From NCBI GenBank assembly GCA_035221665.1, contig JAVHYY010000408.1:124001-188000 (forward strand): DNA of 64,000 nucleotides, in the 5' to 3' direction. Below are positions 7,610-64,000 of this stretch, one piece after another. The position numbers and the translations under genes were made by a program. The DNA comes from Okamejei kenojei. Taxonomy: Eukaryota. Under the pieces are notes generated by a model that did not search any database, had not been told where the DNA came from, and worked only from the letters and a program-made list of their open reading frames with translations. The number at the start of each line of letters is the position of its first letter. Position 1 is the first letter of the stretch.

Positions 7610-7656
7610 ATTACACTCTTTGGAAAACAGATCCGTAATGCAGTTAATGCCACATA

Positions 7657-9813: not shown

Positions 9814-9883
9814 GTGGAACTCCAATGATTGCGAGAAAGGGATAGCAAATGGCAAACACAAGCCCACTTACTGGTCCGTGCAT
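9814..9883 (-). CDS. GPCR gene G0 coding exon 1 (MHGPVSGLVFAICYPFLAIIGVP +1 nt); exon 2 predicted left of the window
   Basis: ATG at 9883, 70 nt, donor GTAAGT at 9813-9808. Same context as the other exon 1 copies. Confidence 0.82.
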
Positions 9884-17294: not shown

Positions 17295-18211
17295 TTATTT
17301 TAATCCACTGAGGCAGTTTTCAAACACCACCAGAGGATATTTCACCGCCTTCTTCAACTCCTGTCTGAATTTAGCCTGGGTCACTGCGTAAATAAAGGAA
17401 TTCGTGCAGAAGCTGAGGGTCGAGAGCATGTTACTGCTTTCTTGGAGAATGTAACGCGGGTTTCTGAAACTTAAACCGGAGAAATAAGGACCGCCTTTAA
17501 TCCGAATGAACAAAAAATTAACGACATGCGTAAACCACAAACACAGAAAACTGGCGGAGATGCTGAAAAGCAAAATTATGGATTTTCTCCGGTTCTCCAT
17601 TTCTGCATCTTTCCCCTCCTCGCGCTCCTTGTTACCGCGAAGTGCATTGCGGATTCTGTTGGACACCAATACGTGTCTGATAGTCAGAACATTGAACAAA
17701 AATATCAGAAGGAAAGGAAGAGAAGGTGTTAAAATGTGATCCAGCCAATCGTAGGCTTTCCAGGCAGGTTCAGTGTAGAAGCTTAACTTATAGTCACAAA
17801 ACCAGGGCACTCCGTCCACTGTATACAATGGTTGGTATACAAAGTAGTAAGGGGCGTTCTTTACACCGCTCAGGGCACAGACAACAGCTATTACCACAGC
17901 CGCGGTTTTCTTCGTGCAGTAACTATCTTTTAGCTGCCGGCAGCAAATGGCTGCGAATCGATCGAAGGTGAATGCAACAGTCAGCCACACCGATGAATCC
18001 GTGCTTGTATAAATCATCACCGTGCTCAAACTACAGGCGGGAGTGGTGGAGAAGAAACTGTTAATAAAGTAGATCCCAGTTATTCGATTCAGTATCACGG
18101 CGGAGACGATTACCAGCAGATCCGTCACCGCCATGGCCACGAGGTAATACGTAACACATTTGGAGAGTCCACACCTCGCTCGCGATAGGATCACAACGGC
18201 CGCTATGCTCG
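17295..18211 (-). CDS. GPR139/GPR142-like class A GPCR, gene G1, coding exon 2 (end of TM1 to stop)
   Basis: Open frame with TM segments and family motifs ILSRARCGLSKCVTYYLVAMAVTDLL, SVWLTVAFTFDRFAAIC, LPFLLI, RRKSIILLFSISASF..W, NML..CTNSFIY. Acceptor ttgtttctcttaacAG at 18213-18212, phase 1. With exon 1 gives 328 aa. Confidence 0.93.
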
Positions 18212-18784
18212 CTGTTAAGAGAAACAACGGTAAGGGTAAAGGAGTAACGATAATGGAATGTTTGATGTAGTTTAAAAGAGAGTGGTTGACCACAAATCGC
18301 TCTAAAACAGCTTGGAGGAGAGTGTTTAACGACCGATTCCAGGGATTGCGGGCCCGAGAGGCAGGCATTGCCTCACTGGAGTTTAGGAGAATGAGAAATG
18401 ATCTTACAAAGAACACCAGCATTCAAACAATACTGTAAAGGGGAGGGGGGTATGTTGTTGATGACATCCAGAATCAACATTCAAGTCATTTGATACGTCA
18501 TCACATTTGAACCGTGAGCTGGCGAAATGTCATCCCACAAATGGCGATGAACGTCTGCAGCAGAAAGCAGTGGAACCCATGTCATTGCACATTTTCCGGA
18601 GGAGGTGGTTGTTTTTTATCAATAGTGAAATAATACCAAAATGCATGATTCCCCCATGCAACCGGTGAACCATAGAGCAGCTGACGGGCCGCTTAATTTA
18701 TCTTTGCTCCTATTTGATTCGTTTCTATGTCGCTGGGAGATTGCAGAAGACGTGGTTTGGTTCCATTGTTGAATTCAGCACTCC

Positions 18785-20330
18785 ATGTGAATTCACAACT
18801 CTCTCTGTGAAAAGATTTTTCCTCATCTCCGTTCTAAATAGCTTTCCCCTTATTCTTAAACGGTGGTCCCTGGTTCCCCGACATCGGCAACATATTTCGA
18901 GCCTCTAGTGTGTCCAAACATTGAAAATTATATGTTTCAAAAAGATCCCCTCTCATCCTTCTAAATTCCAGAGTATTCAAGCCCAGCCACTACATTCTAT
19001 CTACAGATAATGGTCCCGCCTTCCCGGAAATTCACCTCGTGAGCCTATTCCCCCAATAGCAAGCATGTCCTTCAAATTTTGGAAACAAAACTGCATACAA
19101 TACTCCAGGTGTGGTCTCACTAGGGCCCTGCACAAATGCAGAAGGACCTGTTTGCTACTATACTCAACTCCTCTTTTTATGAAGACCAACATGCCATTTG
19201 CTTTCTTCACTGCCTGCTGTACCTGTATGCTTACTTTCAGTGACTGTTGAACTAGGACCCGCAGATCTCGTTGTACATCCCCTTTTCCCAACCTGACACA
19301 GTTGAGATAATAATCCGTTCAGATAAAAATCTTGTTTTTCCAACCTCACTTAACCTCACATGTATCCACATTAAACTGTATCTGCCATGCATCTGCCCAC
19401 TCGCCCAACCTGTCAAAGGCACCCTGCATCCTCATAGCATAATTCTCACAAATCATTGACATATAATGCGGTCCCAGCACAGAGTCTTGCGGTACCCCAC
19501 TAATCACTGCATACCATTCTGAAAAGGACCCGTTAAACCCTACAGTTTCTTACCTCTCTGCCAACCAATTTTCAATCCATGTCAGAACCCTACACCCAGT
19601 AACATGAGCTCTAATTTTGCTCAATAAACTCCTATGTGGGACCTTATCAAATGCTTTCTGAAAGTCCAGGTGCACTACCACCACTGGCTCTCCCATGTCC
19701 AATTTCCTACTTAAATTTCCAAAAAATTCCTGAAGATTAATCAAATAGGATTTCCTCTTCGTACGTCCATGTTGACTCGGACCGATCCTGTTACTGCTAT
19801 CCAAATATGTCGCTTACATATATATTTCATCTTTTATAATTGATTCCAACATCTTCCCCACCACGGATTCGGGCTAACTGATCTAGAATTCCCTGTTTTC
19901 ACTCTCCCGTCTTTCTTAGAAAGTGGGATGACATTAGCTACCCTCCAATCCACAGGAACTGATCCTGAATCTATAGAACATTGGAACATGATCACCAATC
20001 CGTCCACGATTTCTAGGGCCATTTCCGTAAGTACCCTGGAATGCAGACCTTCAGGCTCTGGGGATTTATCAGCCATCAGTCCCATACTCTACCGAAAACT
20101 ATTTCCTGCCAAATATGAATTTCATTCAGTTTCTCCGTCTCCCTAGTTCATCTGGCCACTATTATAACAGGGAGGTTGTTTGTGTCTTCCTTAGTTCAGA
20201 CGGATCCAAGTATATGTTATACTCGTCTGCCATTTCCTGGTTCCCCATAATAAAATCATCTGTTTCAGCCTTCAAGGGTCCAACTTTGGTCTAAACCATG
20301 TTTTTCCTCTACACATACGTAAATAAGCTG
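18785..20330 (-). mobile_element. CR1 RT fragment in the G1 intron (paralogs ~33590-35950, ~42010-43689, ~60940-63310)
   Basis: LDFQKAFDKVPH, GVPQDSVLGP, FADDTKLGG (35402 copy) and RALVRPHLEYC motifs. Confidence 0.88.
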
Positions 20331-20762
20331 TACCTATGTCCGATGCTTCCCGCTTTCTTCTGCTCACTTGGGGCGATCAACAGAATCAGCAGAGTTGGAA
20401 TGGGAGAGACTCCCGGTCAGGCCTATCAGTGAAATGCAAGATTAAACGTGAGTGATAACAGTAAGTTGCAAGATGTTGAAAAACGGGCAATATATTTTCT
20501 TCAATGTGGGGAAGTCCATACTGCGACCATTGAAGCATGTTCAGTTTCAACCTAACTGTAGAAAAACAGGAGAAAATTGCATGATATTGAAGTTTTTGGA
20601 AAAGGAATTTCGACTTTGCATACTTGGTTACGTGGGATACGTCCAGTTTTTTTCTGGAATCGGTGCTTTTCTGAGATTGAGACCAATGCTTTCCTGTCCA
20701 TCACAATGGGTCTCTTCTGTATCGTGCTGTGCACGAGTCTCTTCGATGTCAAGCAGCCCCGC

Positions 20763-21753
20763 TCTAGCTCCCCTTTTCCCATGTCGCAGCAGGGACAGAG
20801 ACCCCCTACTCGTTACCTTTCACCCCGTCAGCCATCGCATACAACACATAATCCTCCGACATTTTGCCAACCTGCAAAGGGATCCCACCACTAGCCACTT
20901 ATTTCCATCTCCACACTTTCTGCATTCGTCAAAGACGGGTCCTTCCACATCTCCCTGGTTACTTCATCCCATTCTCGCCAAATCACCGCCATCCAAGGGA
21001 CTTTTGCCTGCAACTGCAGAATATGCAACCCCTGTCCCAATACCACCGTCGTCGACACCGTCCAAGGATCCCGACGTTCTTTTCAGATGAGGCAGAGGTA
21101 CACTTGGACCTCCTTGAACCTCATGTACCGTACCACCTTTCCAATTGTGGATTCCAATATATCGGCGAGATTAAGCACACGCTTGGCGTTCATTTCGCTG
21201 AACACGTCTGCTCAGTCCGCCAAGGCACACGCGATCTACTAGTTGCTGAACACCTTAACTCCCCCTCCCAGTCCCACAGTGACCTTTCTATCGTCTGCCT
21301 CCTCCACTGTCAGGTTGAGGACCAACGGGAATTGTAGGCCCAACACCTCATATTTCGCTTGTGCAGCTTACACCCCAGTGGTATGAATATTGATTTGGCT
21401 AACTACAAGTATCAGTTGCTTCCCCACTCTCTCCATTCCTCCCCATCCCAGTTCTCCGACTTGTGTTTCTGTGCTCCTGATTAATTGTTACTGATGGTAT
21501 GCCTCCTTCTCAACTTCGCCTCAGCTAACAATGTACATATCCATGATTATCATCCCCTATGATCTGTATTTGTATACCTTACCTTTCCATATCTCCATGT
21601 CTCCCTCTCCCCCGACTCACAGTCTGAAGAAAAGTCTCGAATAGAAACGTCACCCATCATTTCTCTCCAGATATGTTGCATGATCCGCTGAATGTTTCCA
21701 GCGTTTTCTGTCTAGTTTCAGTGTAAACCAGCATCTGTAGATCCTTCCTGCAC
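20763..21753 (+). mobile_element. Penelope-like retroelement 3' part (paralog of 5483-6445)
   Basis: NCGFQYIGEIKHTLGVHFAEHVCSVR..LLVAEHLNSPSQSH, a GIY-YIG domain, followed by the same tail. Confidence 0.85.
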
Positions 21754-22034
21754 AATTGCAATCTGTTTTGTTTCATTTTAAAGCAGGAAAGGGAGTAGAA
21801 AATTCAGCATCTCACAGAAATGTCACCTCATCTTCTTATTCGACAACGTATCTCCCAAACACGGGCACCGCCGCTGTTGCAATAAACGGACGGTGCGGTG
21901 TTTATGTCCGAACTTGTTGCAATGGCAAAATAGAATAGAATGCAATAAATTCAGAAAGGGGTTGTTCCAGGTCATATTTACATATGAAGTGAAGTGCAGT
22001 GTAATCGAACAAAACATTAAATTAACTAAATTAC

Positions 22035-22819
22035 TGTAGATGAATCACCATTAGTTGATGTGATCCATGTCTGGTTCTACCGGTGTACACCTGATCCGAA
22101 TTCCAGTTCAGGTCTTCCACTATGTTATCTTGTGTGCCAATTCGGCGGTTATTTAGATTCATCTTACGGCTTGAACCTGCAACAGTTCCGTGCGTTCGCT
22201 CTACATGTTTATGCTAATAATGAACATACACGAAGCTGAAATTCACCTGTGATGTCAACCGTGAACTCCCCTACGGAAAAGACTGTTCCGAAACCAGTGT
22301 TGATTGAGCCACCACCTGCCGTGCTGTCAGCTGCAAAGAGTAGGGCAGTGGCCCGTCCCGTGCGCCTGCGAGACGGGTTTGTAAGCCCAATCCAAGTACA
22401 AAGACTGTGTTTGGACACTCATCACATACTTTAATTGATTGAGGTCTTCTTCGTTTCCTTTGTATCTTGCTCATTTCGTACCCTCCATTGCTTAGCTGAC
22501 GCTTACATCCTTATATTGTGATGTTTGAAATTGTAGTTTTATATACTTGTATTTAGTTGCGAGTTGATGCTTAAGAATGAGGATGTAAATCAATCACCAT
22601 TAGTTGATGTGATCCATGTCTGTCTTTATTGTTGTACATCTGATCTGTAATCCAGTTCAAGTCTTCCACCATGTCATCTAGTGTGCCAGTTCGTAGGTTC
22701 TTTTGATTCATCTTGGAACTTGAACCGACAACAGTTAGATATAATCGCTCTACATGCTTATGCTAATAACTAACTTATATACGAAGCTGAACGACTCAGT
22801 GTTTAAACATATTCGTACA
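22035..22819 (+). mobile_element. Internally deleted LTR retrotransposon (785 bp); 3' LTR 22584-22819; partial copy at 49075-49634
   Basis: TG...TACA ends, 5-bp TSD ATTAC (22030-22034, 22820-22824), PPT-like aagaatgagga, and a pol C-terminus-like RRVCKPNPKYKD remnant. Confidence 0.8.
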
Positions 22820-23447
22820 ATTACACTCTTTGAAAAACAGATCCGTAATGCAGTTAATGACACATACGATGAATAATACAGCAGAAAACTCCCAACTGGA
22901 CAGAACCACAGCATTGAACATAGTTTTTAATTTAATATGTTTACAACTGCCCTGCACCATAAAATGGAAATTAATATCCACGCAATGCCACTTAATGTAC
23001 CGGAGGAACAATGTACACGTTCGCACCTCACCTTTTTACTGTAATAGTGCAGAATGATAATTAATGCATTATAGTTTATTTATTATAACAAACGATTTTA
23101 AAACAGTGGGTGTGAATATTTTATGACAGATAATCGCTCGTGTTAAGCTTAAGGTGGAGGGTGAAGCCACACACTGATATTCACGTCATCTTAATTCATA
23201 TGCCAAAAGCCTAAACCGTCATCAATGAGCATTCACATGCAAACAGCAGAATGTCACTGAGTATCAGCAGCATCGCATACAGATGAGCAAACACGGGAGA
23301 TTTGCAGACGGGATACGTGATTTCAGTGGATGAGTCAGAGTCTCAGATGACGAAAATCCTATTAAGTGAAAAGTAGGAGTCACAGTTATGGATATACACA
23401 AATTTAGGTAAACGGATTTGGACCCGTTCAATAGAGGTGAAACTTAC

Positions 23448-23517
23448 GTGGAACTCCAATGATTGCGAGAAAGGGGTAATAAATGGCAAACACAAGCCCA
23501 CTTGCCGGTCCGTGCAT
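23448..23517 (-). CDS. GPCR gene G1 coding exon 1 (MHGPASGLVFAIYYPFLAIIGVP +1 nt)
   Basis: ATG at 23517, 70 nt, donor GTAAGT at 23447-23442. Phase matches the exon 2 acceptor. Supplies the missing TM1 half (YY..L..IG.P, as in GPR139 exon 1). Intron 18212-23447. Confidence 0.88.
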
Positions 23518-23564
23518 TGTCTTCAATGGGCGACCTGTATTCCCCAAACATCCAGCATGTCGCA

Positions 23565-23592
23565 CTTATATTTTTTGCGAGAATCCCAGGAG
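23565..23592 (-). promoter_or_regulatory. Candidate core promoter of G1: TATAAG plus an O/E(EBF)-like TCCCAGGAG; equivalents at 9931-9958 and 50373-50400
   Basis: TATAAG about 50 nt upstream of the ATG in all five copies. TCCCAGGAG lies about 14 nt further upstream. Motif match only. Confidence 0.35.
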
Positions 23593-24223
23593 AGTCAATG
23601 TATCTTAATGTTATCCACAGTTCGAACGATCACGAGTGCTGCCATTCAGATTCATGGCATTGTTGTTTTTAACACTCCACTGTAACGGAATACATGCCCG
23701 AAATTGAAACAAATAACACACATTGGATAATCAACAGATTATGAACGTTTCCCCGACAAAATAATATCTAGATGTTTGTTCCCAGCTCTGTTTATTGTCC
23801 GATGTTACTTTACCTCCAACGTTCGAGCACATCACATCCAATGAGTTCCAACGAAATCAAAGTTAAAATAAAACTCGGCCACCAAGAAAGCGTCACATCA
23901 GGAACATTCAATTTTCCTAAACGCACACTGTGATATTAATGCGACCAAGCGAGATTAATCCAGCCAATGTTCTTTCTGGTGAGTAAATATAGTTGGAGCA
24001 TTCAAAGTATACCGCTCAGCTTCTGCCTCATCATTGCTGATTTTATTATGGACCTCTCCCTTTGACGGTCGCTCTGCTTGTGATAACATCTTTGTTAATC
24101 TTTACCAAATACCGTTTCAGATTCGCCTTAATAAATCGGATTCAACAAGTGACTTGCTTGATTAAGGCGTAGCCGACCTTTCTTTAAAGTTGAATGTCCA
24201 TCAATCCCACCAGCCAGTGTTTG

Positions 24224-24847
24224 TAAGGATTTGAGTACAAGAGCAGGGAGGTTCTACTGCAGTTGTACAGGGTCTTGGTGAGGCCACACCTGGAGTATTG
24301 CGTACAGTTTTGGTCTCCTAATCTGAGGAAAGACATTCTTGCCATAGAGGGACTACAGAGATTGTTCACCAGACTGTTTCCTGGAATGGCACGACTTCCA
24401 TATGAAGAAAGATTGGATAGACTTGGCTTGTATTCGCTGGAATTTAGAAGTTTGAGGGGTGATCTCATAGAGACTTACAAAATTCTTAAGGGGTTGCACA
24501 GGCTAGATGCAGGAAGATTGTTACCGATGTTGGGGAAGTCCAAGACAAGGGGTCACAGTTTAAGGATAAGGGGGAAGTCTTTTAGGACCGAGATGAGAAA
24601 ATCGTTTTTCACACAGAGAGTGGTGAATCTGTGGAATTATCTGCCACAGAAGGTAGTTGAGGCCAGTTCGTTGGCCATATTTAACAGGGAGTTGGATGTG
24701 GCCCTTGTGGCTGAAGGGATCATGGGGTATGGAGAGAAGGCAGGTACAGGATACTGTGTTGGATGATCAGCCATGATCATATTGAATGGCGGATTAGGCT
24801 CGAAGGGCCGAATGGCCTGCTCCTGCACCTAATTTCTATGTTTCTAT
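24224..24847 (+). mobile_element. Young 5'-truncated CR1 insertion
   Basis: Open YRVLVRPHLEYCVQFWSP.. ORF, (tttctatg)n tail, TSD gtgtttg (24217-24223 / 24848-24854). Empty sites at ~10579, ~38442, ~51018. Confidence 0.92.
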
Positions 24848-27048
24848 GTGTTTGGCCCATATATTTCTAAAACTGTCCTTTTCATGCACCTCTCCAGATG
24901 TGTTTTAATTATTTTTACAGTTCCTGCCTCAACCACCCCATCTGGCAGCTCGTCTCGTACACCCACAATACATTGTGTATAATGATTGTGTCCGTGATAA
25001 TTCGTTCCTTTTTACATTAAGCTTATCTTTTGTGGTTCTTGTTTCCCCCAATCTGGATACAAGACTGCGCGTTCACCCTGTCTAATTCTCTCACAATAGT
25101 AGCTACCTTTGCAAGATCACCTTTCTTTATTCATGCGCTCCAAGGAAGCATGTCCTACGCTACCCAAATATCTTCCTATATTTCAGTCCCTCGGGTCTGG
25201 GCAACATTTAATTATTCAATGTTCACCAACAGTAGGGTGGACATACCGGAACCAAATGCTCCAAATGCGGCCTTACCAACGCCTTGTACAATGGTGACAT
25301 GACATACTCATTGCCCTGACTGATGAAGGCGAATGTACCGAAAGCCTTCCTTACTAAACGGTCTACTGGTGGTAACAATTTCAGGGGAATATGCGCCTAC
25401 GCTGCCAGATACCTAAGCGCTACAACATTCCGTAGAGTTCCGCCAATGTCACTGCGACGTATGATGATGTAATGCTCCTTCTACATTCAATCATCCATGT
25501 GGGCCGTCCTGAAGAGTAATACTAAATTTCTATTTTAATTTTCCATCCATTGTCACTGATTAAAACCATTGGCCTTTTCACATATTCCATTTCTCATTAA
25601 CAATTGATGCAATTACGCCACTTGGTCGATTAAACGAAATGTGTTGTTGGAACAAGGTCAGAGCTTCGGCTGGAACTGTCCACACTTGTCTGGCTTTGTA
25701 TGTTAAAGACACATTAGGCACGCATATCTTTACTGAAGGCAAATCAGAACACCGTGCACAGAGAACTGAGCACAACACGCAGTCCACGGAGCACGGAAAT
25801 GAGGCGCAGAGTAGAACGCGGGCAGCACGGACCATGGAACGCAGAGAACGGATCACAAAGCACTGGGCGTAAACCACACAGCATGGCCTTTGTCGAGCTA
25901 CCAGTCAAATGGAGAAGTGATGTCCCTCTGTTTAATAAAAGCATGGCGAATAGAACAAACATGCACGTCGGTGAGGATGATGCCCGTGGAGGTGGAGAAG
26001 TTATCGGATAAGATTCTTCTGGATATAAGGTTTAGGGCGAAGGGCAAAAGGTGGAATAGGAACTTGAGGGGTAACTATTTCACACAAAGGCTGGTGGGTG
26101 TCTGGAACACGCTCCCAGAGGAGGTGGTTGAGGGTGGGACAAGCCAAACGTTTAAGAAACAGTTAAACAGGTGCACGGATATAACAGGTTTGTTGGGAAA
26201 TGGACCAATCGCGGGCTGGGATGTGTTAGCCTGTGTAGGCAGGTTGGGCCGAAGGGCCTGTTTCCACGCTGTATCACTCTATGGATAGAATCTACTCGCA
26301 TAGAGAAAAGGGTGGATTTTATTAGGGTATATCTTACAAATGGTTCATGGCTTGTAAAAATGCGGTGATGCATGGTAGACTAAAAGAACTGCAAATGCAT
26401 GGTAACTTGCGTTGAATGCAAAGTATTGGGGTAACTCAGCGGTTCATGTGGATGGTATAGACAAACGACATTGTCCCAATCTGCCCGTCAGTTAGCATGG
26501 TTCGCATTTTCTATTTCTGGAATCACAAATCGACTCGAGTTTGAAGGGGGTGTTGGGAGGGGGAGTGTGTCGGGAGGGGGAGTGCGTGAAGGAGGATGTG
26601 TATGTGCGGGATGTGGTGTGTTTGGCGGAGGAGGTGTGTGTGGAGGGTTTAGTGGGGTTGTTGCGGTAGGGGAGGGGATGTATGTGGGAGGGGGAGTGTA
26701 GATCAGTGCAGATTAGTGACTCATGCTATGAGTTATGCATCTGTAGTTACGCCCACTACCTTGTTAGAGTCGCGGTCTGCTGCATTCCGTTAATCTTAGA
26801 GTTAACTCTTAAGTGAGAAGTTGAAACAATAAAACCGATGTAACCTAACATGTTGTAAGGCTACTGTTATTATAAGGACTACAAATCGACAGGGAGGGGT
26901 GTGGCTGGTAGGGGAGAGTGTGGGGGAATGTGGGGGATGGAGGTATGGACATGTGTGGGCGGCGGGGGGGGGGGGGGTTGAGGGGGCGGGGGGCGTGGGG
27001 GAACACAGCGGAACACAGCCCACACTCCGCTTCTTCAGCTTTATTCTC

Positions 27049-27168
27049 GGCGGCTTCTAGACGGGGGTGTTCTAGACGGGCGGCTTCCAGACGGGAGGCT
27101 TCTGGACGGGCGGCTTGTGGACGGGCGGCTTGTGGACGGGCAGCTTCTGGACGGGCGGCTTCTGGACG
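27049..27168. repeat. 15-bp minisatellite (gcggcttctggacgg) x ~8
   Basis: Direct reading. It follows a G-rich tract at 26890-27000. Confidence 0.9.
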
Positions 27169-31524: not shown

Positions 31525-31566
31525 GTTGTAGTGCAGCGGCCTACAGAGAGGCCGCTCCACTACAGC
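31525..31566. other. GC-rich inverted repeat with a 16-18 bp stem and 6-nt loop (second copy 58720-58761)
   Basis: gttgtagtg(c/g)agcggcct-acag(a/g)g-aggccgctccact(a/g)cagc. Confidence 0.8.
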
Positions 31567-32487
31567 CTGTATATTTCTCTCTCTCTAGGATCCGCTAGGA
31601 TCCGCTGGGCTGAAGGGCCAGATACTGTGTTTCATTCCTCTATGACTCCATCAGGCCAATGTTAAATTGGCCGAACTCTGCCCACATACCCGTTCAACTG
31701 CGTCTCCGTCTATAACGTCTACAGTGTATCTACAGTTGTCGTCCCTTTTCATGCGCAACTGCACGCTTCAAACCTCAAGGGGAGAAGACCATTTTGTAAT
31801 CACGTTTTAGGTTTTACTAGACTGGTGTCCCGGAACGAAAATGAAAGACGTAACCTCTATAACTGATGGACATTCAGAATTTATGGCTACAGGGATGCGG
31901 AGAGAACAAAATATTTCCGGCTATTCTTTGACAGTCTAATTTTGCGCTTTGTTATTATTGCAATAAAACCTAAAAATAATCCTTGAGCTCAGGTCACCTA
32001 GCGGCCAAATGTTTTATTAACGCACTCTCGGCAAACCCCTGTCGATTTTGTTCACGTTTTTTTCCAGCATACATCATTCAATACTCCAAAGATAACACAT
32101 AATGCCCTATAGTTATTTCCCCGTTGCTTGCAAAGTGGCGCACACTGATCTATTGGCAAGACCCATGCATTTTTGCTGAAACAGATATCCGACCTTTCAC
32201 TCTATTACGAACATACGGCAATGTCTGACGAGGAATGTTGAGTGTTCCATGGTGACTAAAGCCTCCAGGTCTATGACTGACTCGTCGTGGCACTCCTGCA
32301 TTTCGTGTCTATCTCTCTCTTTATAACTACAAATGATGCATTAATGCTGGAGAAACTGGATGGAGCGGAGCTTTGGATGCGGTGCCCGCGATTCTAGCTA
32401 GAATGTTGACAATTGGGAGATCACACTTTTACAACAAATAACGGAAAGTTGAAACCGGGTCATAAATATACATTCTGTCGGAATAAT

Positions 32488-33379
32488 TTATTTTAATCGA
32501 CTGAGGTAGTTTTTAAACACCACCAGAGGATATTTCACCGCCTCTTTCAACTCTTGTCTGAATTAAGCCTGGGTCACTGCGTAAATAAAGGAATTCGTGC
32601 AGAAGCTGAGGGTCGAGAGCATTTTAGCGCTTTCTTGGAGAATGCAACGAGGATTTCTGAAACCGGAAAAATAAGAACCGCCTTTAATCCGAACGAACAC
32701 AAAATTAACGACATACGTAACCCAGAAGACCAGAAAACTGGCGGAGATGCTTAAAAGTAAAATGACAGATTTTCTCCTGTTCTCATTTTCTGCATCTTTC
32801 CCATCCTCAAGTTCCTTGTTACTACGAAGTGCATTGCGGATTTTGTTGGCCACAAATATGTGTCTGATAGTCAGAACATCGAACAAACATATCAGAAGGA
32901 AAGGAACAGAAGGTATTAAAAGGCGATCCAGCCAATCGTAGTCTTTCCAGACAGGTTCAGTGTAGAAGCTTAACTTAAAGTCACAAAACCGGGGCACTCC
33001 GTCCACTGTATACAATGGTTGGCATGTAAAGTAGTAAGGGGCGTTCTTTACACCTCTCAGGACACAGGCAGCAGCTATTCCACAGCCGCGGTTTTCTTCG
33101 AGCAGTAACTATCTTTTAGCTGCCGGCAGCAAATGGCTGCGAATCGATCGAAGGTGAATGCAACCGTCAGCCATACCGACGAATCCCTGCTTGTATAAAT
33201 CATCGCCGTGCTGAATCTACACCCAAGAGTGATGGAGAAGAAACTGTTAATAAAGTAGATCCCGGTGATTCGATTCAGTATCACGGCGGAGACAATTACC
33301 AGCAGATCAGTCACCGCCATGGCCACTAGATAATACGTAACACATTTGGAGAGTCCACACCTCGCTCACGATAGGATCA
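32488..33379 (-). pseudogene. GPR139-like pseudogene G2, exon 2
   Basis: 18-nt deletion at the exon start, CGA>TGA at 33368-33366, 1-nt frameshift near 33078 (AAVE*), 6-nt ECL3 deletion, and a private TAA at 32565-32563. Confidence 0.92.
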
Positions 33380-34190
33380 CTGTTAAGAGATACAACGATA
33401 AGGGTAGAGTAACGATAAAGGAATGTTTGATGTAGTATAACAGTGAGTAGTTGACCAAAAACTGCTCTAAAACGACGTGGAGGAGTAAAACCCATGTCTG
33501 CAGCAGAAAGCAGTGGAACCCAAGTCATTGCCAAGACTTGCCAACCCAAGACAATAGACAACAGACAATAGGCAATAGAGAATGGATGCAAGAGTAGACC
33601 AATCGGCCCTTCGAGGAAGCACCGACATGCACAGTGATCATTGCTGAACATCCACAATCAGTACCCCATTCCCGCCTTCTCCTCATATCCCCTACTCCGT
33701 TATCTTTAAGATCTCTATCTAACCTTTTCTTGAAAGCATCCAGTGAATTGGCATCCATTGCCTTCTCAGGCTGAGAATTCCACAGATTCACAACCCTCTG
33801 TGTGAAAAGCTTTTTCCTCATCTTTGTTCACAATGGCTTACTCATTAATCTTAAACTGTGGCTCCTGGTTTTGGACTCCCGCGTCATCGGGAACTTGTTT
33901 CGTGCCTCTAGTGTGTCCAAACATTGAAAATTATATGTTTCAATAAGATACCCTCTTATCCTTCTAAATTGCAGAGCATTGAAGCCCAGCCGCTACATTC
34001 TATCAACAGATAACAGTCCCGCCTTCCCGGTAATTCACCTTGTGAACCTACGCTGCACTACCTCAAAGCAAGAATGATTTTGCTCAAATTTTGAAACCAA
34101 AACTGCATACAATACTGCAGGTGTGGCCTCAGGGGGCCCTGCACAACTGCAAAGTACCTCTTTGCTCCTATAGTCAACTCCTCTTTTTAT

Positions 34191-35169
34191 TTATTTATTT
34201 TTTTGTTTTAATATTTTATTTATTGGAGGGAAATACATCAATGTACTTCACATATACCTTGTTACAATCATTGTACCCCATAATTTTATGGCTTTTAAAG
34301 AAAAATAATAGAAAGAAAGAGAGTGAAATAGGTGAAAAGAATGGTGATAGCGAAAGAGCGTGCCAAAAGGGAGAAGAAACCCTTCGTCAAAGAATTAGAG
34401 AAAGGGGGTTAAGAGATAGACCCTAAAAAAAAGGAAAAGGAAAACAAAAATAAAAAAAATCCAGTTACCCTGTTATATATATCACGCAAAAGGAATCCAC
34501 CAACTACATAGTTTTTCATCCCCCCCTACCAAGGCCCGAGGTAATCCTGCACCCTATCTTTGTAGCAATTCTATAAATGCAGACCACGTCTGAAAGAAGC
34601 GTTCTGATTTTCCTTCCAGGCGGAGTCTCATATCTACCAGATGTAGTGTTTCAAACATAGTTGAAATCCACATATTTAATGTTGGTATAGGAGGAGCATT
34701 TTTCCAGAATTTTAAGATTAGAGTTTTCCTATTATTAAGCCGTAATCAAATACATTCTTTTGATACGTATTTAATTCTGGACTACCTTCTGTCATTCCGA
34801 AAATAATCCATTCTGGCTTTGGTGTCATTTTTATTTTAAACACTTTTGTGAAAATTTCAAAGATTTCAATACAAAACCTTTGAATTTTTTGGTAACAAAA
34901 GATGAATGAGTGCGCTATTGTAGTTTCTTGAATGTGGCATTTATCACAAATCGGTGAAACGTTAGGGAAACATTTATTTAATTTAGTTTTTTGAGTAGTA
35001 TAATCTATGTATAATTTAAATTGTATTAAAGGTGTCTTACTTAACTGAGCATTTGTGCACATTTGGATAAGTATTCTTCCACCTTTCATTAGAAATGTTT
35101 ATGCTTAGTTCGTTTTCCAACTCACCTCTAATACCTGCCGTTGTTGGTATTACTGCATTTAGTATACGT
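34191..35169 (-). mobile_element. 5'-truncated L1-clade insertion in CR1 (second copy ~61584-62550)
   Basis: LIQFK..SPICDKC..HSF zinc-knuckle region, A-rich tail, 12-bp TSD tcctctttttat (34179-34190 / 35170-35181). Empty site at ~19169. Confidence 0.88.
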
Positions 35170-36065
35170 TCCTCTTTTTATGAATACCAACATGCCATTT
35201 GCTTTCTTCACTGACTGCTGTACCCGTGTGCTTACTTTCAGAGACTGATAAACAAGGACCCGTAGATCTCGTTGTACCACCCATCGCAACCTGCCACTGT
35301 TTAGATAATAAGCTGTTCAGATATTAATCTTGTTTCACCAACAAAGTGGATAACCTTCACATTTATCTATCACATTAAACTGCATCCTGCCATGCATCTG
35401 CCTACTCACCCAACCTGCCCAAGTCACGCTGCATCCTCATAGCATCATTCTCACAGTTCACACTACCACCCAGCTTTGTGTCATCTGCAAAAGTGCTAAT
35501 ATTACTTTTAATCCCTTCATCTAAATAATTGACGTATATTGTAAATATCTGCGGTCCCAGCACCGAGTCTTGCGGTACCCCACTAATCACTGCCTGCCAT
35601 TTGGGGTACTAAAAGAGACACGTTAAACCCTACTGCTTGTTACCTCTCTGCCAACCAATTTCCTAGCCATGTCAGTACCCTACCCCCAATAACATGTGCT
35701 CTAATTTTGCCCACTAAACTCCTATGTGGGACCTTGGCAAATGTTTTCTAAAAGTCCAGGTGCACTACATCCACTGGCTCTCCGTTGTCCATGTTCATAG
35801 TTACATCTTCAAAACATTCCGGAAGATTAATCAAGCATGATTTCCCGTCGTACATCCATGTTGACTCGGACCGATCCCTGTTACTGCTATCCAAATATGC
35901 CCGCTATTTCATATTTCATAACTGATTCCAGCATCTTCCACACCACGGAATCTACAGGCTCAAATGACAAAAATCCCAAACAGTTAAAACTTAGGAGTCG
36001 CAGTTATGTATACACACAAATTTAGTTAAACGATATTTGTCCCGTTCAATAGAGGTGAAACTTAC

Positions 36066-36133
36066 GGGGAACTCCAATGATTGCGATAAAGGGGTAGTAA
36101 ATGGCAAACACAAGCCCACTTGCTGGTCCGTGC
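36066..36133 (-). pseudogene. Pseudogene G2 exon 1, start codon deleted
   Basis: HGPASGLVFAIYYPFIAIIGVP with intact GTAAGT donor. A ~19-nt deletion (gtgc|ctatttt) removes the ATG. Confidence 0.85.
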
Positions 36134-36319
36134 CTATTTTGCCCAAACATCCAGCATGGCGCACTTATATTTTCCGCGAGAATCCCAGGTGAGTCAATTT
36201 ATCTTCATGTTGTGCACAGTTCGAACGACTACGAATAACGCCATTCAGATTCATGGCATTGTTGTTTTTCAACACTGACTGTAACGGAATACATGTCCCA
36301 AATGGGAACAAATAACATA

Positions 36320-37936
36320 CAGTGGCTTGCAAAAGATTTTATACCCCTTGAACCTTTCCACATTTTGTCACATTACAACCACAAACGTAAATTTATTTTA
36401 TTGGGATTTTATGTGATAGACCAACACAACGTGGCGCATAATTGTGAAGTGGAAGGAAAATGATACGTGGTTTTCAAATTGTTTTACAAATTAAAAACTG
36501 AAAAGTGTGGCGTGCAAAAGTAGTCAGACTCCTTTATTCTGATTCCCCTAAATAAACTTCAGTGCAGCCAATTGCCTTCAGAAGTCACCCAATTAGTAAA
36601 TTGAGTCCACTTGTGTATAATCTAATCTCAGTATAAATACAGCCGTTCTGTGAAGGCCTCAGAGGTTTGTTACAGAACATAAGTGAAAAAAACAGCATAA
36701 TGAAGCCTAAGGAACACACCGGACAGGTCAGGGATACATTTGTAGAGATGTTTAAAGCAGGGTTAGGTTATAAAAAAATATCCCAAGCTTTGAACATCTC
36801 ACGGAGCACTGTTCAATCCATCATGCTAAAATGGAAAGAGTATGGCACAACTGCAAACCTACCAAGGCATGGCCCTCCACCTAAACTGACAGGCCGGGCA
36901 AGGAGAGCATTGATCAGAGAAGCAGCCAAGAGGCCCATGGTAACTCTGGAGAAGCTGCAGAGATCCACAGCTCAGGTGGGAGAATCTGTCCACAGAACAA
37001 CTATTAGTCGTGCCCTCCACAAATCGGGCCTTTATGGAAGAATGGCAAGAAGAAAGCCATTGTTGAAACAAAGCCAGAAGAAGTCCCGTTTGCAGTTTGC
37101 CACAAGCCATGTGGGGGACACAGCAAACATGTGGAGAAAGGTGCTCTGGTCTGATGAGACCAAAATTGATGTTTCTGGTCTAAATGCAAAACGCTATGTG
37201 TGGTGGAAAACTAACACTGCACATCACCCTGAACACACCATCCCCATTGTGAAACATGGTGGTGGGAGCATCATGCTGTGGGGATGCCTTTCTTTAGCAG
37301 GGACAGGGAAGCTGGTCAGAGTTGATTGGAAGATGTATGGAGCCAAATACGGGGCAATCTTGGAAGAAAACCTGTTAGAGTCTGCAAAAGACTTGAGACT
37401 GGGGCGGAGGTTCACCTTCCAGCAGGACAACGACTCTAAACATACAGCCAGAGCTACAATGGAATGGTTTAGATCAAAGCATATTCATGCGTTAGAAGTG
37501 CCCAGTCAAAGTCCAGACCTAAATCCAATTGAGAATCTCTGGCAAGACTTGAAAATTGCTTTTCACAGACGCTCTCCATCCAATCTGACTGAGCTTGAGC
37601 TATTTTGCAAAGAAGAATGGGCAAACATTTCAGTCTCTAGATGTGGAAAGCTGGTAGAGACATACCCCAAAAGACTTGCAGCTGTATTGCAGCGAAAGGT
37701 GGTTCTACAAAGTATTGACTCAGGGGGGCTGAATACTTTTGCACGCCACACTTTTCAGTTTTTTATTTGTAATAAAATTTGGAAACCATGTATCATTTTC
37801 CTTCCACTTCACAATTATGCACCACTTTGTGTCGGTCTATCACATAAAATCCCGATAAAATACATTTACGTTTGTGGTTGTAATGTGACAATATGTGGAA
37901 AGGTTCAAGGGGTATGAATACTTCTGCAAGCCACTG
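36320..37936 (+). mobile_element. Tc1/mariner DNA transposon, full length (1617 bp), IR/DR-type long TIRs
   Basis: TA flanks at 36318-19 and 37937-38. TIRs of ~210 bp have outer and inner ..tgcaaaagtattca.. repeats. Empty site at ~63678. Confidence 0.96.
36700..37917 (+). CDS. Tc1 DD34E transposase, open except for a 1-nt C-terminal frameshift causing read-through
   Basis: MKPKEHT.. paired-like [26 protein letters not shown] (34 residues between D and E). gctgtattgcag versus gctgtaattgcag in the other copy. Confidence 0.9.
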   Translation: MKPKEHTGQVRDTFVEMFKAGLGYKKISQALNISRSTVQSIMLKWKEYGTTANLPRHGPPPKLTGRARRALIREAAKRPMVTLEKLQRSTAQVGESVHRTTISRALHKSGLYGRMARRKPLLKQSQKKSRLQFATSHVGDTANMWRKVLWSDETKIDVSGLNAKRYVWWKTNTAHHPEHTIPIVKHGGGSIMLWGCLSLAGTGKLVRVDWKMYGAKYGAILEENLLESAKDLRLGRRFTFQQDNDSKHTARATMEWFRSKHIHALEVPSQSPDLNPIENLWQDLKIAFHRRSPSNLTELELFCKEEWANISVSRCGKLVETYPKRLAAVLQRKVVLQSIDSGGLNTFARHTFQFFICNKIWKPCIIFLPLHNYAPLCVGLSHKIPIKYIYVCGCNVTICGKVQGV

Positions 37937-39375
37937 TACTTTGGATAATCAATACATTCTGAACGTTTCCCTGACAAAATAACGTTTCTAGATGTTTCTT
38001 CCCTGCTCTCTTTATCTTCCGATGTTACCTTCCCTCCAACGTTCGAGCATATCACATCCAAACTCGGCCAGCAAGAAAGCGTCACTTCAGTAACATTCAA
38101 TTTCCCTAAACGCACACGGTAACATTAATGTGACCAAGCGAGATTGATCCAGCTGTGTTCATTCTGGTGAGTAAATATAGTTGGAGCATTCAAAGTTTAA
38201 CGCCCAGCTTCTGGCTCATCATTGCTGATTTTATTATGGACGTTTCCCTTTGATGGTCGCTATGCTTGTTATACCATCTTTGTTTATCTTTACCAAATAG
38301 CGTTTCAGAATCGCCTTAATAAATCGGATTCAACGGGTGACTTACTTGATTAAAGCGTAGACGACCTTCCTTTAAAGTATAATGTTCCCCCTCCATCAAC
38401 CCCACCTGCTAAAGTTGAATGTCCATCAATCCCACCAGCCAGTGTTTGGCCCATGTATTTCTCAAAATGTCCTATTCATGCACCTCTCCAGAAGTGTTTT
38501 AATTATTTTTACAGTTCCTGCCTCTACCACCTCATCTGTGGCAGCTCGGCTAAGTGGCACTCAACAATACGTTTTTGTGTTGAAAGGAATGTGTCCCTGA
38601 TAAGTGCGTTCCTTTGTACATTATCTTAGGCCTTTGGTTCTTGTTTCCGCTCCCCAATCTGGATACAAGCTCTGTGCAATATCTCCCTGTGCGAAGTCTC
38701 TCACATTAGTTCATTACATTATCAAGAGCACCTCTCTTTTTCCATGCGCTCCAAGGAAGAAAAAGTCTTAGTCTAACCCAAGGTATCTCCCTATATTGCA
38801 GTCCCCTCCGGTCAGGCAACATGTAATTATTCAATGCTCACCAACATAATTGCTGCAGTGAGGTGGACATACCGGAACCAAATACTCCAAATGCTGCCTT
38901 ACCAACGCCCTGTACAAAGGTGACATGACATACGTATTGCCCTGACTGATGAAGGCCATTGTACCGAAAGCCTTCATTGCTCACCATGGAACGCATAGAT
39001 TGGCTCACAGAGCACTGGGCGTAAACCACATAGCATGGCCTTTGTCGAGCTACCAGTCAAATGGAGAAGTGATGTCCTTCCGTTTAATAAAAGCATGGCG
39101 AATAGAACAAAAATGCACGTCGGTGAGGATGACGCCCGTGGTGGTGGAGAAGTTATTGGATAAGATTCTTCGGCATATAAGGTTTAAGATGAAGGGCAGA
39201 AGGTGGAATAGGAACTGGAAGGGTAACTCTCTCACACAAAGGCTGGTGGTTGTCTGCAACAAGCTACCAGAGGAGGCGGTTGAGGGTGGGATAAGCCAAA
39301 CGTTTAAGAAACAGTTAAACAGGTACACGGATATAACAGGTTTGTTGGGAAATGGGCCAAACGCAGACAAGTGGG

Positions 39376-39437
39376 ACTAGTGTAGCAGGTGTTACTAGTG
39401 TAGCAGGTGTAACTAGTGTAGCAGGTGTAACTAGTGT
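39376..39437. repeat. 18-bp tandem repeat (actagtgtagcaggtgta) x3.4
   Basis: Direct reading. Paralogous CR1 tails have one unit. Confidence 0.9.
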
Positions 39438-40657
39438 TAGCCTGTGTGGGCAGGTTGGGCCGAAGGGCCTGTTTCCAAGCTGTATCACTCTATGACTCTA
39501 TGACTATGGATAGAATCTACTCGCATTGAGAAAAGGGTGGATTTTATTGGGGGTATATCATACAAACGGTTCATTGTTTGAAAAACTGCGATGATGCATG
39601 GTAGACTCAAATAACTGTACCAGATCCGTGAGTATGTGTGACTTGCTCAACACACGGTGAGTTCTACCAGAGTGGTTCGCTCTATAAACTGGCATCGCCT
39701 CTAGAAAATCGGCGTGTGCGAAACTCATCGTTGTTCTGCGCCATTGAACAGCGAGCATTGCTCTTCGTCTGGGAAGAGAGGAATCCTAGGTGAGTTTCAG
39801 TGCGGACATTTTAAAAAGCCAGGCCAGGGACAGCTTGAATAGTTGGCCGAACTCTACCCACATCCCCGTTCAAACTGTGTCTCCCCCTCTATAACGTCTA
39901 AAGTGTCTCCACAGTTGTCTTCCCTTTTCTTGCGCAACTGCACGGTTCATTCAAACCACAAAAGTGAGAAGACCATTTTGTAATCATTTTTTAGGTGTTG
40001 TAAGACTGGTTTCCTGGAACGAAAAAGAAAAACGTAACCTCTATAACTGATGGACGTTCAGAATTTATCGCTACAAGGATGATGAGAGAACAAAATATTT
40101 CCGGCTCTTCTCGAACAGTCTAATTTTGCGCTTTGTTATCATTGCAATTAAACCTAAAATAAATTCTAGAGCTGAGGCACCTGAGCGGCCAACTGTATTA
40201 TTAACGGTCTCTCGGCAAACGACCTCGATTTTTTCACGTTTTTTTCAGCATACATCATTCAATAAAACATAATGGCCTACAGTTCTTTCTCCGTTACATG
40301 CAAAGTGGCGCACACTGATCTTTTGGCAAGACCCATGCATTTTTGCTGAAACAGATATCCGACCTTTCACTCTATTATGAACATACGGCAATGTCCGACG
40401 AGACATATTGTGTGTTCGATGGTGACTAATGCCGTCAGGTCTATGACTGACCCGTCGTGGCACTCCTGCATTTCGTGACTATCTCTCTCTTTATATCTTC
40501 AAATGATGCACTAATGCTGGAGAAACAGGATGGAGCGGAGCTTTGGATGTGGTGCCCGCGATTCTAGCTTGGTTGTTGGCAATTGCAAGATCATATTTTT
40601 ACAACAAATAACGGAATGTTGAAACCGGGGCGGAAATATACATTCTCTCGGAATAAT

Positions 40658-41576
40658 TTATTTTAATCGACTGAGGCAGTTTTCAAACACCACCAGCGGA
40701 TATTTCACCGCCTTCTTCAACTCCTGTCTGAATTTAGCCTGGGGCTCACTGCGTAAATAAAGGAATTCGTGCAGAAGCTGAGGTTCGAGAGCATGTTACC
40801 GCTTTCTTGGAGAATGTAACGTGGATTTCTGAAACTTGAACCGGAGAAATAGGAACCGCCTTTAATCCGAATGAACATAAAATTAACGACATACGTAACC
40901 CACAAGAACAGAAAACTTGCGGAGATGCTGAAAAGCAAAATTATGGATTTTCTCCGGTTCTCAATTTCTGCATCTTTCCCATCCTCGCGCTCCTTGTTAC
41001 CACGAAGTGCATTGCGGATTTTGTTGGACACAAATACGTGTCTGATAGTCAGAACATTGAATAAAAATATCAGAAGGAAAGGAAGAGAAGGTGTTAAAAT
41101 GTAATCCAGCCAATCGTAGGCTTTCCAGACAGGTTCAGTGAAGAAGCTTAACTTATAGTCACAAAACCAGGCCACTCCGTCCACTGTATACAATGGTTGG
41201 TATACAAAGTAGTAAGGGGCGTTCTTTACACCGCTCAGGGCACAGACAGAAGCTATTACCACAGCCGCGGTTTTCTTTGTGCAGTAACTATCTTTTAGCT
41301 GCCGACAGCAAATGGCTGCGAATCGATCGAAGGTGAATGCAACCGTCAGCCACACCGATGAGTCCCTGCTTGTATAAATCATCACCGTGCTGAAACTACA
41401 GGCGGCGGTGGTGGAGAAGAAACTGTTAATAAAGTAGATTCCGGTGATTCGATTCAGTATCACGGCGGAGACGATTACCAGCAGATCCGTCACCGCCATG
41501 GCCACTAGGTAATAAGTAACACATTTGGAGAGTCCACACCTCCCTCGCGATAGGATCACAACGGCCGCTATGTTCG
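40658..41576 (-). CDS. GPR139-like GPCR, gene G3, coding exon 2; 2-nt insertion near 40744 shifts the frame after TM7 (new stop at 40717)
   Basis: About 92% aa identity to G1 by manual comparison. Acceptor ttaacAG at 41578-41577. gcctggGGCtcac versus gcctgggtcac in G1. Ancestral TAA at 40660-40658. Confidence 0.88.
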
Positions 41577-50255: not shown

Positions 50256-50325
50256 GTGGAACTCCAATGATTGCGATAAAGGTGTAGAACATGGCAACCA
50301 CAAGCCCACTTACTGGTGCGTGCAT
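50256..50325 (-). CDS. GPCR gene G3 coding exon 1 (MHAPVSGLVVAMFYTFIAIIGVP +1 nt)
   Basis: ATG at 50325, 70 nt, donor GTAAGT at 50255-50250. Intron 41577-50255 contains CR1 and L1. Confidence 0.85.
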
Positions 50326-55851: not shown

Positions 55852-55883
55852 TCACCCGTGCATGACAGAGGTCAATCTCTGGC

Positions 55884-63419: not shown

Positions 63420-63484
63420 GGAACTCCAATGATTGCGATAAAGGGTAGTAAATGGCAAACACAAGACCCACTGCTGGTCCGTGC
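63420..63484 (-). pseudogene. Pseudogene G4 exon 1 (degenerate, ATG deleted)
   Basis: ..PFIAIIGVP followed by the donor at 63419-63414. Same ATG-removing deletion as G2, plus indels. Confidence 0.8.
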
Positions 63485-64000
63485 CAGTTTTCCCCAAACA
63501 TCCATCATGGCGCACTTATATTTTTCCGCGATGATCCCTGGTGATGTCACAAATTTATCTTCATGTTGTGCACAGTTCGAAAACGAAAAGACTACGATTA
63601 ACGCCATTCGATTCATGGATTGTTGTTTTTACAACATGACTGTAACGAATACAGTCCCAAATGGGAACAAAAATAACATACATTGGATAATCAATACTTC
63701 TGATGTTTCCCTGACCAAAATAACGTTTCTAGATGTTCTTCCCTGCTCTCTGTATAGTCCGCTGTACCTTCAATCCAACGTTCGAGCATATCACATCCAT
63801 CTCGTGCAGCACGAAAGCGTATTCAGTAACATTTCTATTTCCCTAAACGCACACGGTAAACATGCATGTGACCCAAGCGAGGATTGATCCAGCTGTGGTT
63901 CATTCTGGTGTGTAATCTATAGTTGGTGCTATCAAAGTTTATACGCCCAGATTGGCTCATCATTGCCTGATTTTATTATGGACGTTTCCCTTTGATGGTC

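What the first reader, a model, noticed from the sequence alone, without database searches (positions are those of the whole stretch)
17295..41576. Paralog differences hit canonical ligand-pocket positions
A manual comparison of G1 and G3 exon 2 gives about 22 substitutions in ~276 aa. Numbering from C3.25/R3.50, P5.50, W6.48 and Y7.53 places several at pocket-facing sites: T/R 3.36, H/Y 5.43 (R in the pseudogenes), H/Y 6.51, S/G 7.38 and T/N 7.43; N7.39 is K in the pseudogenes. TM2 and the DRF/ICL2 region are identical. Inference: ligand specificity may be diversifying between neighbours.
Basis: partly seen in the sequence, partly recalled or inferred. Interest (0 to 1): 0.7.

Follow-up and report, generated by a model that had tools for sequence, protein, structure and literature searches.

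The report
Skate receptor array with loosened pocket
These are young side-by-side copies of an orphan cell-surface receptor gene in a cartilaginous fish whose predicted ligand pocket changes about three times faster than the rest of the protein, and a sister group with hundreds of copies shows strong positive selection on the same predicted face, so the family is likely an unrecognised repertoire for sensing varied outside molecules.

Summary
In detail: G1 and G3 differ at 22 of 276 exon-2 residues and all five named positions are numbered correctly. As evidence the pair is weak. Only 3 of the 5 are GPR139 contact positions, and 3 of 17 is chance level (p=0.14). G3 loses helix 8 to a frameshift. 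K7.39 is one mutation in a dead lineage; R5.43 is the family consensus.

Ten intact close paralogs partly rescue the idea: dN/dS at the 17 contact positions is 1.17 (CI 0.78-1.77) against 0.43 elsewhere (permutation p about 0.01; 0.07 against extracellular helix sites), also without G1 and G3's sister. It is not above 1, and site models are borderline (p 0.10, 0.07, 0.015), so relaxation and weak selection cannot be separated.

The larger result lies outside the window. A sister clade (282 exact motif matches genome-wide) shows very strong positive selection: 2dL=610, omega about 7, 26 sites, all extracellular, 10 of 17 contacts. It repeats in a held-out sample, and the same sites are hypervariable in two sharks and a ray. 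The genes are not GPR139 orthologues. I have no expression or ligand data.

The parts
23448..23517 (-). G1 exon 1: ATG, 23 codons plus one base (N-terminus and first half of TM1), phase-1 GTAAGT donor
   Evidence: the same exon and junction occur in annotated shark relatives P0003 and P0004
17295..18211 (-). G1 exon 2, open, 304 codons from position 1.50 to the stop; class A 7TM; predicted protein 328 aa; Ser at 1.50
   Evidence: model pLDDT 81.8 with seven helices, ECL2 hairpin and helix 8
18000..18002 (-). G1 codon 3.36 (Thr; Arg in G3; R/T/M/I among ten intact paralogs); aligns to GPR139 contact I112
17736..17738 (-). G1 codon 5.43 (His; Tyr in G3; Arg is family consensus, 72 of 114); next to, not on, GPR139 contact H187
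17526..17528 (-). G1 codon 6.51 (His; Tyr in G3; Y/H/D/C among ten paralogs); aligns to GPR139 R244; posterior 1.0 for positive selection in the sister clade
17433..17435 (-). G1 codon 7.38 (Ser; Gly in G3); next to, not on, GPR139 contact N271
17418..17420 (-). G1 codon 7.43 (Thr; Asn in G3; N/T/S among ten paralogs; Leu in 89 of 114 family members); aligns to GPR139 contact L275
36066..36135 (-). G2 exon 1, start codon lost
32488..33379 (-). G2 exon 2, pseudogene: 18-nt loss at the exon start, stops at codons 10 and 280, 1-nt and 6-nt deletions; K7.39
50256..50325 (-). G3 exon 1, ATG and donor intact
40658..41576 (-). G3 exon 2, open for 276 codons, then shifted; stop ends at 40717
40744..40745 (-). 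2-nt insertion in G3 after Y7.53 that removes helix 8 (mutation or assembly error, not decided)
63420..63489 (-). G4 exon 1, no start codon, frame broken
59686..60574 (-). G4 exon 2, pseudogene sharing G2's main lesions and K7.39
9814..9883 (-). Exon 1 of a fifth copy (G0) whose intact exon 2 lies just outside the window (G000:C495:121198-122114)

Best explanation
The window is part of a young tandem array of two-exon orphan class A receptor genes in which the helical scaffold stays under purifying selection while predicted pocket positions, chiefly 3.36, 6.51 and 7.43, change at about the neutral rate, which likely retunes ligand preference in some copies while others die. Shown: array, exon structure, lesions, dN/dS values. 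Inferred: copies arise by unequal crossing-over of 12-25 kb units; redundancy frees the pocket of single copies, probably with weak diversifying selection on top; copies are then kept or lost (birth-and-death). Inferred from a peptide-receptor-like model (ECL2 hairpin, C3.25 and an invariant ECL2 cysteine) and a charged consensus pocket: the ligands are probably peptides or charged amino-acid-like molecules. The array is a slow, small branch of a family whose largest branch is under strong positive selection on the ligand face, the pattern expected of receptors for varied external molecules.
For: Array: 17 exon-2 and 20 exon-1 close matches on five small contigs, plus two partial exon-2 matches; ten copies have both exons open; 91-99% nucleotide identity. 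Pocket against rest: 1.18 vs 0.425, LRT p=3e-4; permutation p 0.010 all sites, 0.016 TM sites; without G1 and G3's sister 1.42, p 0.001, 0.003 and 0.022; six copies on one contig 1.0 vs 0.37, p=0.017; tree-free count 16 changes on 41.7 sites, pN/pS 0.89 vs 0.34, p=0.001. Scaffold still constrained: 69 of 88 non-pocket variant states occur in other intact family members (44.5 expected), against 19 of 48 (20.8 expected) for pseudogene-only states. No recombination signal, PHI p=0.31. Hint of selection: M8 vs M8a p=0.015; 2 of 60 null simulations reach the observed statistic. 3.36 and 7.43 are slow family-wide (ranks 180 and 185 of 290) yet have 4 and 3 states here. Sister clade.
Against: Pocket dN/dS does not exceed 1 (CI 0.78-1.77; tree-free p=0.71). 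M2a vs M1a p=0.098, M8 vs M7 p=0.072, and the statistic falls to 0.87 without G1. Against extracellular TM sites only, p=0.067 and 0.11 for the same-contig set. The wider 39-position set is not significant by permutation (p=0.13). Top-ranked sites include non-pocket 4.48, 6.46 and tail residue 296. Pocket variant states are no more family-typical than random neighbours (9 of 16, 7.1 expected). The contact set was fixed from the paper after I had seen the alignment, and four sets were tried. Across 114 family members the pocket is not fast (p=0.47), nor in 20 other young clades pooled (0.37 vs 0.31, p=0.21). Mapping rests on about 25% identity to GPR139; side-chain orientation was not measured.
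Confidence: 0.55

Rival explanations
1. Pure decay of redundant copies: ligand binding no longer matters for most copies, the pocket drifts neutrally, and selection only removes misfolding variants until the copy dies.
For: Pocket dN/dS is indistinguishable from 1. 7 of the 17 full-length close exon-2 copies are broken. G1 and one other intact copy have Ser at 1.50; G3 differs from its sister by two proline losses among 5 changes plus the frameshift. Overall dN/dS is 0.47 against 0.23 family-wide.
Against: Non-pocket sites stay at about 0.43 with family-typical substitutions. M8 vs M8a p=0.015. Repeated hits at 6.51, a site under clear positive selection in the sister clade.
Confidence: 0.25
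2. Clear positive selection on ligand specificity within this array, as in the sister clade.
For: M2a fits 3.5% of sites at omega 3.4; the six core positions give 1.8-2.1; power is only about 53% (8 of 15 simulations) for selection of that size.
Against: Selection of sister-clade strength would give 2dL 135-221 on this tree (8 of 8 simulations) against 4.5 observed. The 26 sites selected in the sister clade give only 0.66 here (p=0.16). No site has posterior above 0.95.
Confidence: 0.12
3. Chance and hindsight: a few variable sites were picked after the fact and the pocket is no different from other extracellular helix positions.
For: Pair-level enrichment is not significant. Extracellular non-pocket helix sites are also raised (0.63). 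Permutation within extracellular TM sites gives p 0.02-0.11 depending on the subset. Removing three sites removes the signal. Two near-identical pairs on different small contigs could be alleles.
Against: The excess persists and grows in paralogs not used for the original observation and in a tree-free count.
Confidence: 0.08

Closest known systems
GPR139 / GPR142 (vertebrate orphan class A receptors; L-Trp and L-Phe agonists; PDB 7VUG, 9M42)
   Same: Best sequence match among solved structures (E 4.6e-12 single sequence, 7e-17 profile). Database relatives are auto-named 'probable GPR139'. N7.39 and a non-proline 7.50 are shared.
   Different: No R6.51 (H, Y, D or C), no F7.50 (Ser), an added C3.25-ECL2 cysteine pair, 20-22% structural identity, and only rank 24 in the fold search, behind galanin, TRH, orexin and opioid receptors. 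The GPR139 review describes a highly conserved brain receptor; this family has hundreds of copies.
'Orphan 139-like' family listed in Table 1 of PMC5207463
   Same: A named orphan group beside GPR139/142 in clade 4 of the peptide receptors, members unclear, ligand unknown.
   Different: The table gives no species, sequences or copy numbers, and the paper I recall as its source was not held, so identity with this family is untested. No expansion or selection is mentioned in the passages I saw.
Birth-and-death chemoreceptor families OR, TAAR, V1R/ORA, V2R/OlfC, T2R; also FPR and MRGPR clusters (the last two recalled, no call)
   Same: Tandem and dispersed clusters, many pseudogenes, conserved intracellular half, variable pocket and loops.
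   Different: Derived from the GPR139 / MIP-sex-peptide / FMRFamide receptor branch, two exons with a phase-1 intron in TM1, not counted among the six vertebrate chemoreceptor families (PMC10869828 holds no 'GPR139'); sensory expression untested.

Membership tests
Class A (rhodopsin-like) GPCR | 7tm_1 domain above the curated cut-off and seven-helix fold | tested here: met
   PF00001 73.8 bits against cut-off 30.5; model with seven helices and helix 8; TM-score about 0.7 to peptide receptors
Class A (rhodopsin-like) GPCR | Anchor residues N1.50, D2.50, R3.50, P5.50, W6.48, Y7.53 and helix 8 | tested here: inconclusive
   D2.50, DRF, P5.50, W6.48 and Y7.53 are present in all ten intact copies; N1.50 is Ser in 2 of 10, including G1; helix 8 is lost in G3
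GPR139/GPR142 orthologue | Arg at 6.51, found only in GPR139 and GPR142 and needed for activation (PMC8807744) | tested here: not met
   H/Y/D/C in the ten paralogs; Tyr in 71 of 114 family members, Arg not among the six commonest states
GPR139/GPR142 orthologue | Phe at 7.50 | tested here: not met
   Ser in the array, Thr in the family profile
GPR139/GPR142 orthologue | Conserved low-copy gene with conserved synteny | tested here: not met
   123 scored protein matches plus 282 motif matches for one sister clade in this genome; synteny and the true GPR139 locus were not examined
'Orphan 139-like' group (PMC5207463, Table 1) | Groups with the sequences of that study | not testable with these tools
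   No sequences in the table; source paper not held
Birth-and-death sensory receptor repertoire | Many lineage-specific copies with a large pseudogene share | tested here: met
   Array: 10 of 17 full-length close copies intact. Sister clade: 29 of 35 and 21 of 40 exon-2 frames open
Birth-and-death sensory receptor repertoire | Positive selection on the ligand-binding face: this array | tested here: inconclusive
   Pocket dN/dS 1.17, CI 0.78-1.77; site tests p 0.098, 0.072, 0.015
Birth-and-death sensory receptor repertoire | Positive selection on the ligand-binding face: sister clade B | tested here: met
   2dL 610 in 38 sequences and 231 in 21 held-out sequences; all selected sites extracellular
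Birth-and-death sensory receptor repertoire | Expression in sensory or immune cells, sparse per-cell pattern | not testable with these tools
   No RNA holder listed; no usable RNA data obtained
Birth-and-death sensory receptor repertoire | Paralogs respond to different ligands | not testable with these tools
   Needs a cell assay

The most novel reading that the evidence does not exclude
Sharks, skates and rays carry an undescribed repertoire of several hundred GPR139-like receptors, recruited from the peptide-receptor branch and diversified by positive selection on pocket and extracellular loops, that serves as a further chemosensory (or immune-sensing) family. One clade alone would outnumber all canonical olfactory receptors reported for these animals (20-62 per genome, PMC10869828). 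This array is a small young branch of it, with its pocket in the first stage of retuning.
Probability: 0.4. Interest if true: 0.85.

Novelty: new variant of a known kind. Interest (0 to 1): 0.6.

Why it matters
Cartilaginous fishes have many olfactory neurons but the smallest known olfactory receptor repertoire among vertebrate groups (mean 43.8 genes; PMC10869828, passages). A family with hundreds of copies and a hypervariable predicted ligand face, hidden in databases under the automatic name 'probable GPR139', is a direct candidate for missing sensory or immune recognition capacity. It can be tested with tissue RNA data. The array in the window is a modest case by itself. Its use is as a set of near-identical natural variants at 3.36, 6.51 and 7.43 for deorphanisation.

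Tried and rejected
Pair-level enrichment: not significant, rejected as evidence.

Pseudogene residues: K7.39 is shared by four related dead copies with common lesions and occurs in 0 of 104 other intact members; R5.43 is the consensus. A pseudogene-trio control was too small to inform (tree length 0.12, CI 0.01-1.92).

Recombination as the source of the signal: PHI p=0.31 for the array, 0.54 and 0.27 for the sister clade. Alleles posing as paralogs: the result is kept with six copies on one contig.

Family-wide pocket acceleration: absent in 114 members and in 20 pooled young clades, although that pool included nine members of the selected clade.

G3 insertion: contigs of four DNA runs (each held under half of the sampled words, so probably related species or collapsed paralogs) lack the two bases; this cannot tell mutation from assembly error. 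Side-chain orientation could not be read from the model because no coordinates were returned, and the VIA comparison was not obtained. A first simulation timed out and was redone on a grid.

Earlier scan findings: none. Literature: nine searches showed no paper describing this expansion; the library lacks most subscription journals.

Rows dropped: 7 of 112 wide-family loci without an open frame plus L012; 6 of 35 and 19 of 40 sister-clade loci; G3 and broken copies were left out of the main ten-copy tests and two were added back.
Full report
WHAT IS THERE. The window is G000:C495:124001-188000 of a 2.76-Gb genome. The closest named relative of G1 is a skate protein at 88% identity, and the named hits listed are shark and ray proteins, nearly all auto-named 'probable G-protein coupled receptor 139' (120 listed of 1463 hits). 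Four exon-2 copies lie on the minus strand, each with a 70-base exon 1 some 2.7-8.7 kb upstream; a fifth exon 1 at 9814-9883 belongs to a copy just outside. The junction matches annotated shark relatives. G1 is intact (328 aa predicted) but has Ser at 1.50. G2 and G4 are pseudogenes with shared lesions. G3 has a 2-nt insertion after Y7.53 that removes helix 8; Q278 and F281 there are invariant in 112 aligned relatives. Genome searches find 17 full-length close exon-2 copies, two partial ones and 20 exon-1 copies on five small contigs; ten have both exons open.

THE OBSERVATION. G1 and G3 differ at 22 of 276 residues, with 15 further silent codons; all five position numbers are right, and TM2 and DRF/ICL2 are identical. 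I read parts 1 and 2 of 3 of PMC8807744 (supplement not read) and took its 17 transmembrane pocket positions as set A, mapped through the profile alignment. This set was fixed after I had seen the alignment. 3.36, 6.51 and 7.43 are in it; 5.43 and 7.38 are one residue off. For the pair, 3 of 17 (p=0.14) and 4 of 39 recalled generic positions (p=0.38) are chance level. The pseudogene residues carry no weight: K7.39 is one event in a dead lineage (0 of 104 other intact members), and R5.43 is the family consensus (72 of 114).

I wrote my own codon models (F3x4, naive empirical Bayes posteriors; not PAML). Ten intact copies, 304 codons: overall dN/dS 0.466; M2a vs M1a 2dL 4.65 (p=0.098); M8 vs M7 5.25 (p=0.072); M8 vs M8a 4.72 (p=0.015); no site above 0.95; top sites mix pocket (6.51, 3.36, 7.43) and non-pocket (4.48, 6.46, tail). 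Set A has dN/dS 1.18 against 0.425 (p=3e-4), not different from 1 (p=0.52; CI 0.78-1.77). Permutation p is 0.010 against all sites, 0.016 against TM sites and 0.067 against extracellular TM sites; the 39-position set gives 0.13. Without G1 and G3's sister the value is 1.42 (p 0.001, 0.003, 0.022). With six copies on one contig it is 1.0 against 0.37 (p 0.017, 0.031, 0.11). A tree-free count agrees (0.89 vs 0.34, p=0.001; not above neutral, p=0.71). In eight held-out copies the five named sites show 7 new states against 8 at the other 17 (p=0.035). Removing 3.36, 6.51 and 7.43 leaves 0.66 (p=0.15). Simulation: 2 of 60 null sets reach the observed statistic; 8 of 15 sets under the fitted model pass the threshold; sister-clade-strength selection would give 135-221 in 8 of 8. 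So in this array the pocket is released to about the neutral rate on a constrained scaffold, and strong selection is excluded.

THE WIDER FAMILY. 114 open exon-2 frames (104 from the 123 scored hits after dropping 8 loci, plus the ten) give dN/dS 0.23 and no pocket excess. The consensus pocket is charged: R3.36 (80), D5.42 (78), R5.43 (72), Y6.51 (71), E7.36 (105), N7.39 (60). Of 21 young clades, most show no excess, but one of nine members did (2.58 vs 0.59; 2dL 79). I followed it up. This clade B has 282 exact matches to a clade-specific 24-base motif, control 0, spread over most large contigs. In 38 open frames (9 plus 29 of 35 new, chosen by likeness to one member): M2a vs M1a 2dL 610, omega 7.2 at 10.6% of sites; M8 vs M7 649; M8 vs M8a 591; 26 sites above 0.95, namely 11 pocket, 11 extracellular loop, 4 extracellular helix and 0 of 148 intracellular positions; 10 of 17 set-A positions (p=7e-8) (relative branch lengths fixed). 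A tree-free count also exceeds neutral for set A (1.58, p=9e-4), and PHI is negative. Forty further loci, hand-picked across contigs from the first 100 listed, gave 21 open frames: 2dL 231, omega 6.1, 13 sites, 11 shared with the first 26 (p=2e-11). The same 26 sites are the most variable in database relatives from Heterodontus (50), Mobula (22) and Pristiophorus (16), each p about 1e-13 (protein entropy, hits chosen by likeness). The window's array belongs to a separate, well-supported branch with single stingray and shark relatives.

HOW IT LIKELY WORKS. Shown: duplication units of shared repeats, intact and dead copies side by side, a constrained scaffold and a free pocket. Predicted: a seven-helix receptor with an ECL2 beta-hairpin (model of exon 2 only, pLDDT 81.8) whose nearest folds are peptide receptors. 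Inferred: coupling is conserved because the intracellular half is the most constrained part; ligands are peptides or charged small molecules; changes such as R to T/M/I at 3.36 and Y to H/D/C at 6.51 alter pocket charge and would shift or abolish binding. In GPR139 a single change at 3.36 abolishes agonist activity and 6.51 is essential, so the positions matter in the nearest solved relative. Whether the changed copies gain new ligands or simply lose the old one is not decided. A family branch under omega of about 7 on pocket and loops in several lineages is best explained by recognition of varied external ligands (inference): chemosensation or immunity.

COMPARISON AND NOVELTY. It works like OR, TAAR or V2R clusters but descends from the GPR139 / MIP-sex-peptide / FMRFamide receptor branch (section 8 of PMC12208981; atlas neighbours). 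It fails the GPR139 membership tests (R6.51, F7.50, copy number). 'Orphan 139-like' appears as a table row in PMC5207463 (section 12 and passages); whether it is this family is untested. Passages of PMC10869828, PMC12294341 and PMC10116579 do not treat it. Nine searches (listings and abstract starts only) showed no description of the expansion or of selection on it; subscription journals and genome-paper supplements were not seen and may mention it.

VERDICT. Observation confirmed; interpretation partly supported. The local claim alone would rate about 0.35: real but modest, and built on one probably dead gene. The family-level result raises the overall score to 0.6. Expression and ligands are the open points.

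Noticed in passing
L118, L130, L131, L139, L144-L147, L149, L154-L193, L214-L253 (G000, many contigs, e.g. C43:13174709-13175609): Sister clade B of the same receptor family: 282 exact motif matches, about half to four-fifths of sampled exon-2 frames open, very strong positive selection on pocket and extracellular loops, same sites hypervariable in two sharks and a ray.
   Followed up: yes
G000:C15:55.2-57.6 Mb (L017-L030 and many of L061-L152): An older cluster holding more than half of the 123 scored family matches, 50-60% identical to G1, mostly intact and under purifying selection; 9 of 114 family members have Arg in place of W6.48.
   Followed up: partly
window 40744-40745: G3's 2-nt insertion removes helix 8; G3 also differs from its nearest sister by two proline-to-alanine changes among five. 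Mutation or assembly error not decided.
   Followed up: partly
window 18207-18209: G1 has Ser at 1.50, as do one other intact copy and one broken copy of the array; N1.50 is usually among the most conserved class A residues (recalled).
   Followed up: partly
window 36318-37938 and 7655-9260: Two Tc1/mariner elements with inverted terminal repeats, in opposite orientation, 91% alike; the first keeps a long transposase frame (HTH and DDE domains) and lies just upstream of G2 exon 1.
   Followed up: partly
window 1-3400 and 44129-49074: Two related L1-like LINE copies (RT domain) in the introns of G0 and G3, 88% alike, so the insertion predates their duplication or the unit was copied with it.
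   Followed up: no
window 52500-57300: A GC-richer insertion with an RT domain followed by frames resembling RNase H, methyltransferase and tyrosine recombinase parts; DIRS-like by recall, the later frames had no Pfam match.
   Followed up: no
L047 (C495:17495-18411), L051 (C494:2200-3190), L211, L213: Copies near contig ends carry dozens of 1-4-base indels, which looks like unpolished assembly rather than decay; some 'pseudogenes' on these contigs may be errors.
   Followed up: no
L005/L009 and L008/L010: Two pairs on different small contigs are 98-99% identical and may be alleles rather than paralogs.
   Followed up: yes
window codon 124 of G1 exon 2 (17840 region): Second-ranked variable site (V/A/T) at the TM4-ECL2 junction may correspond to GPR139 W166, a ligand contact; the alignment there is ambiguous.
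   Followed up: partly
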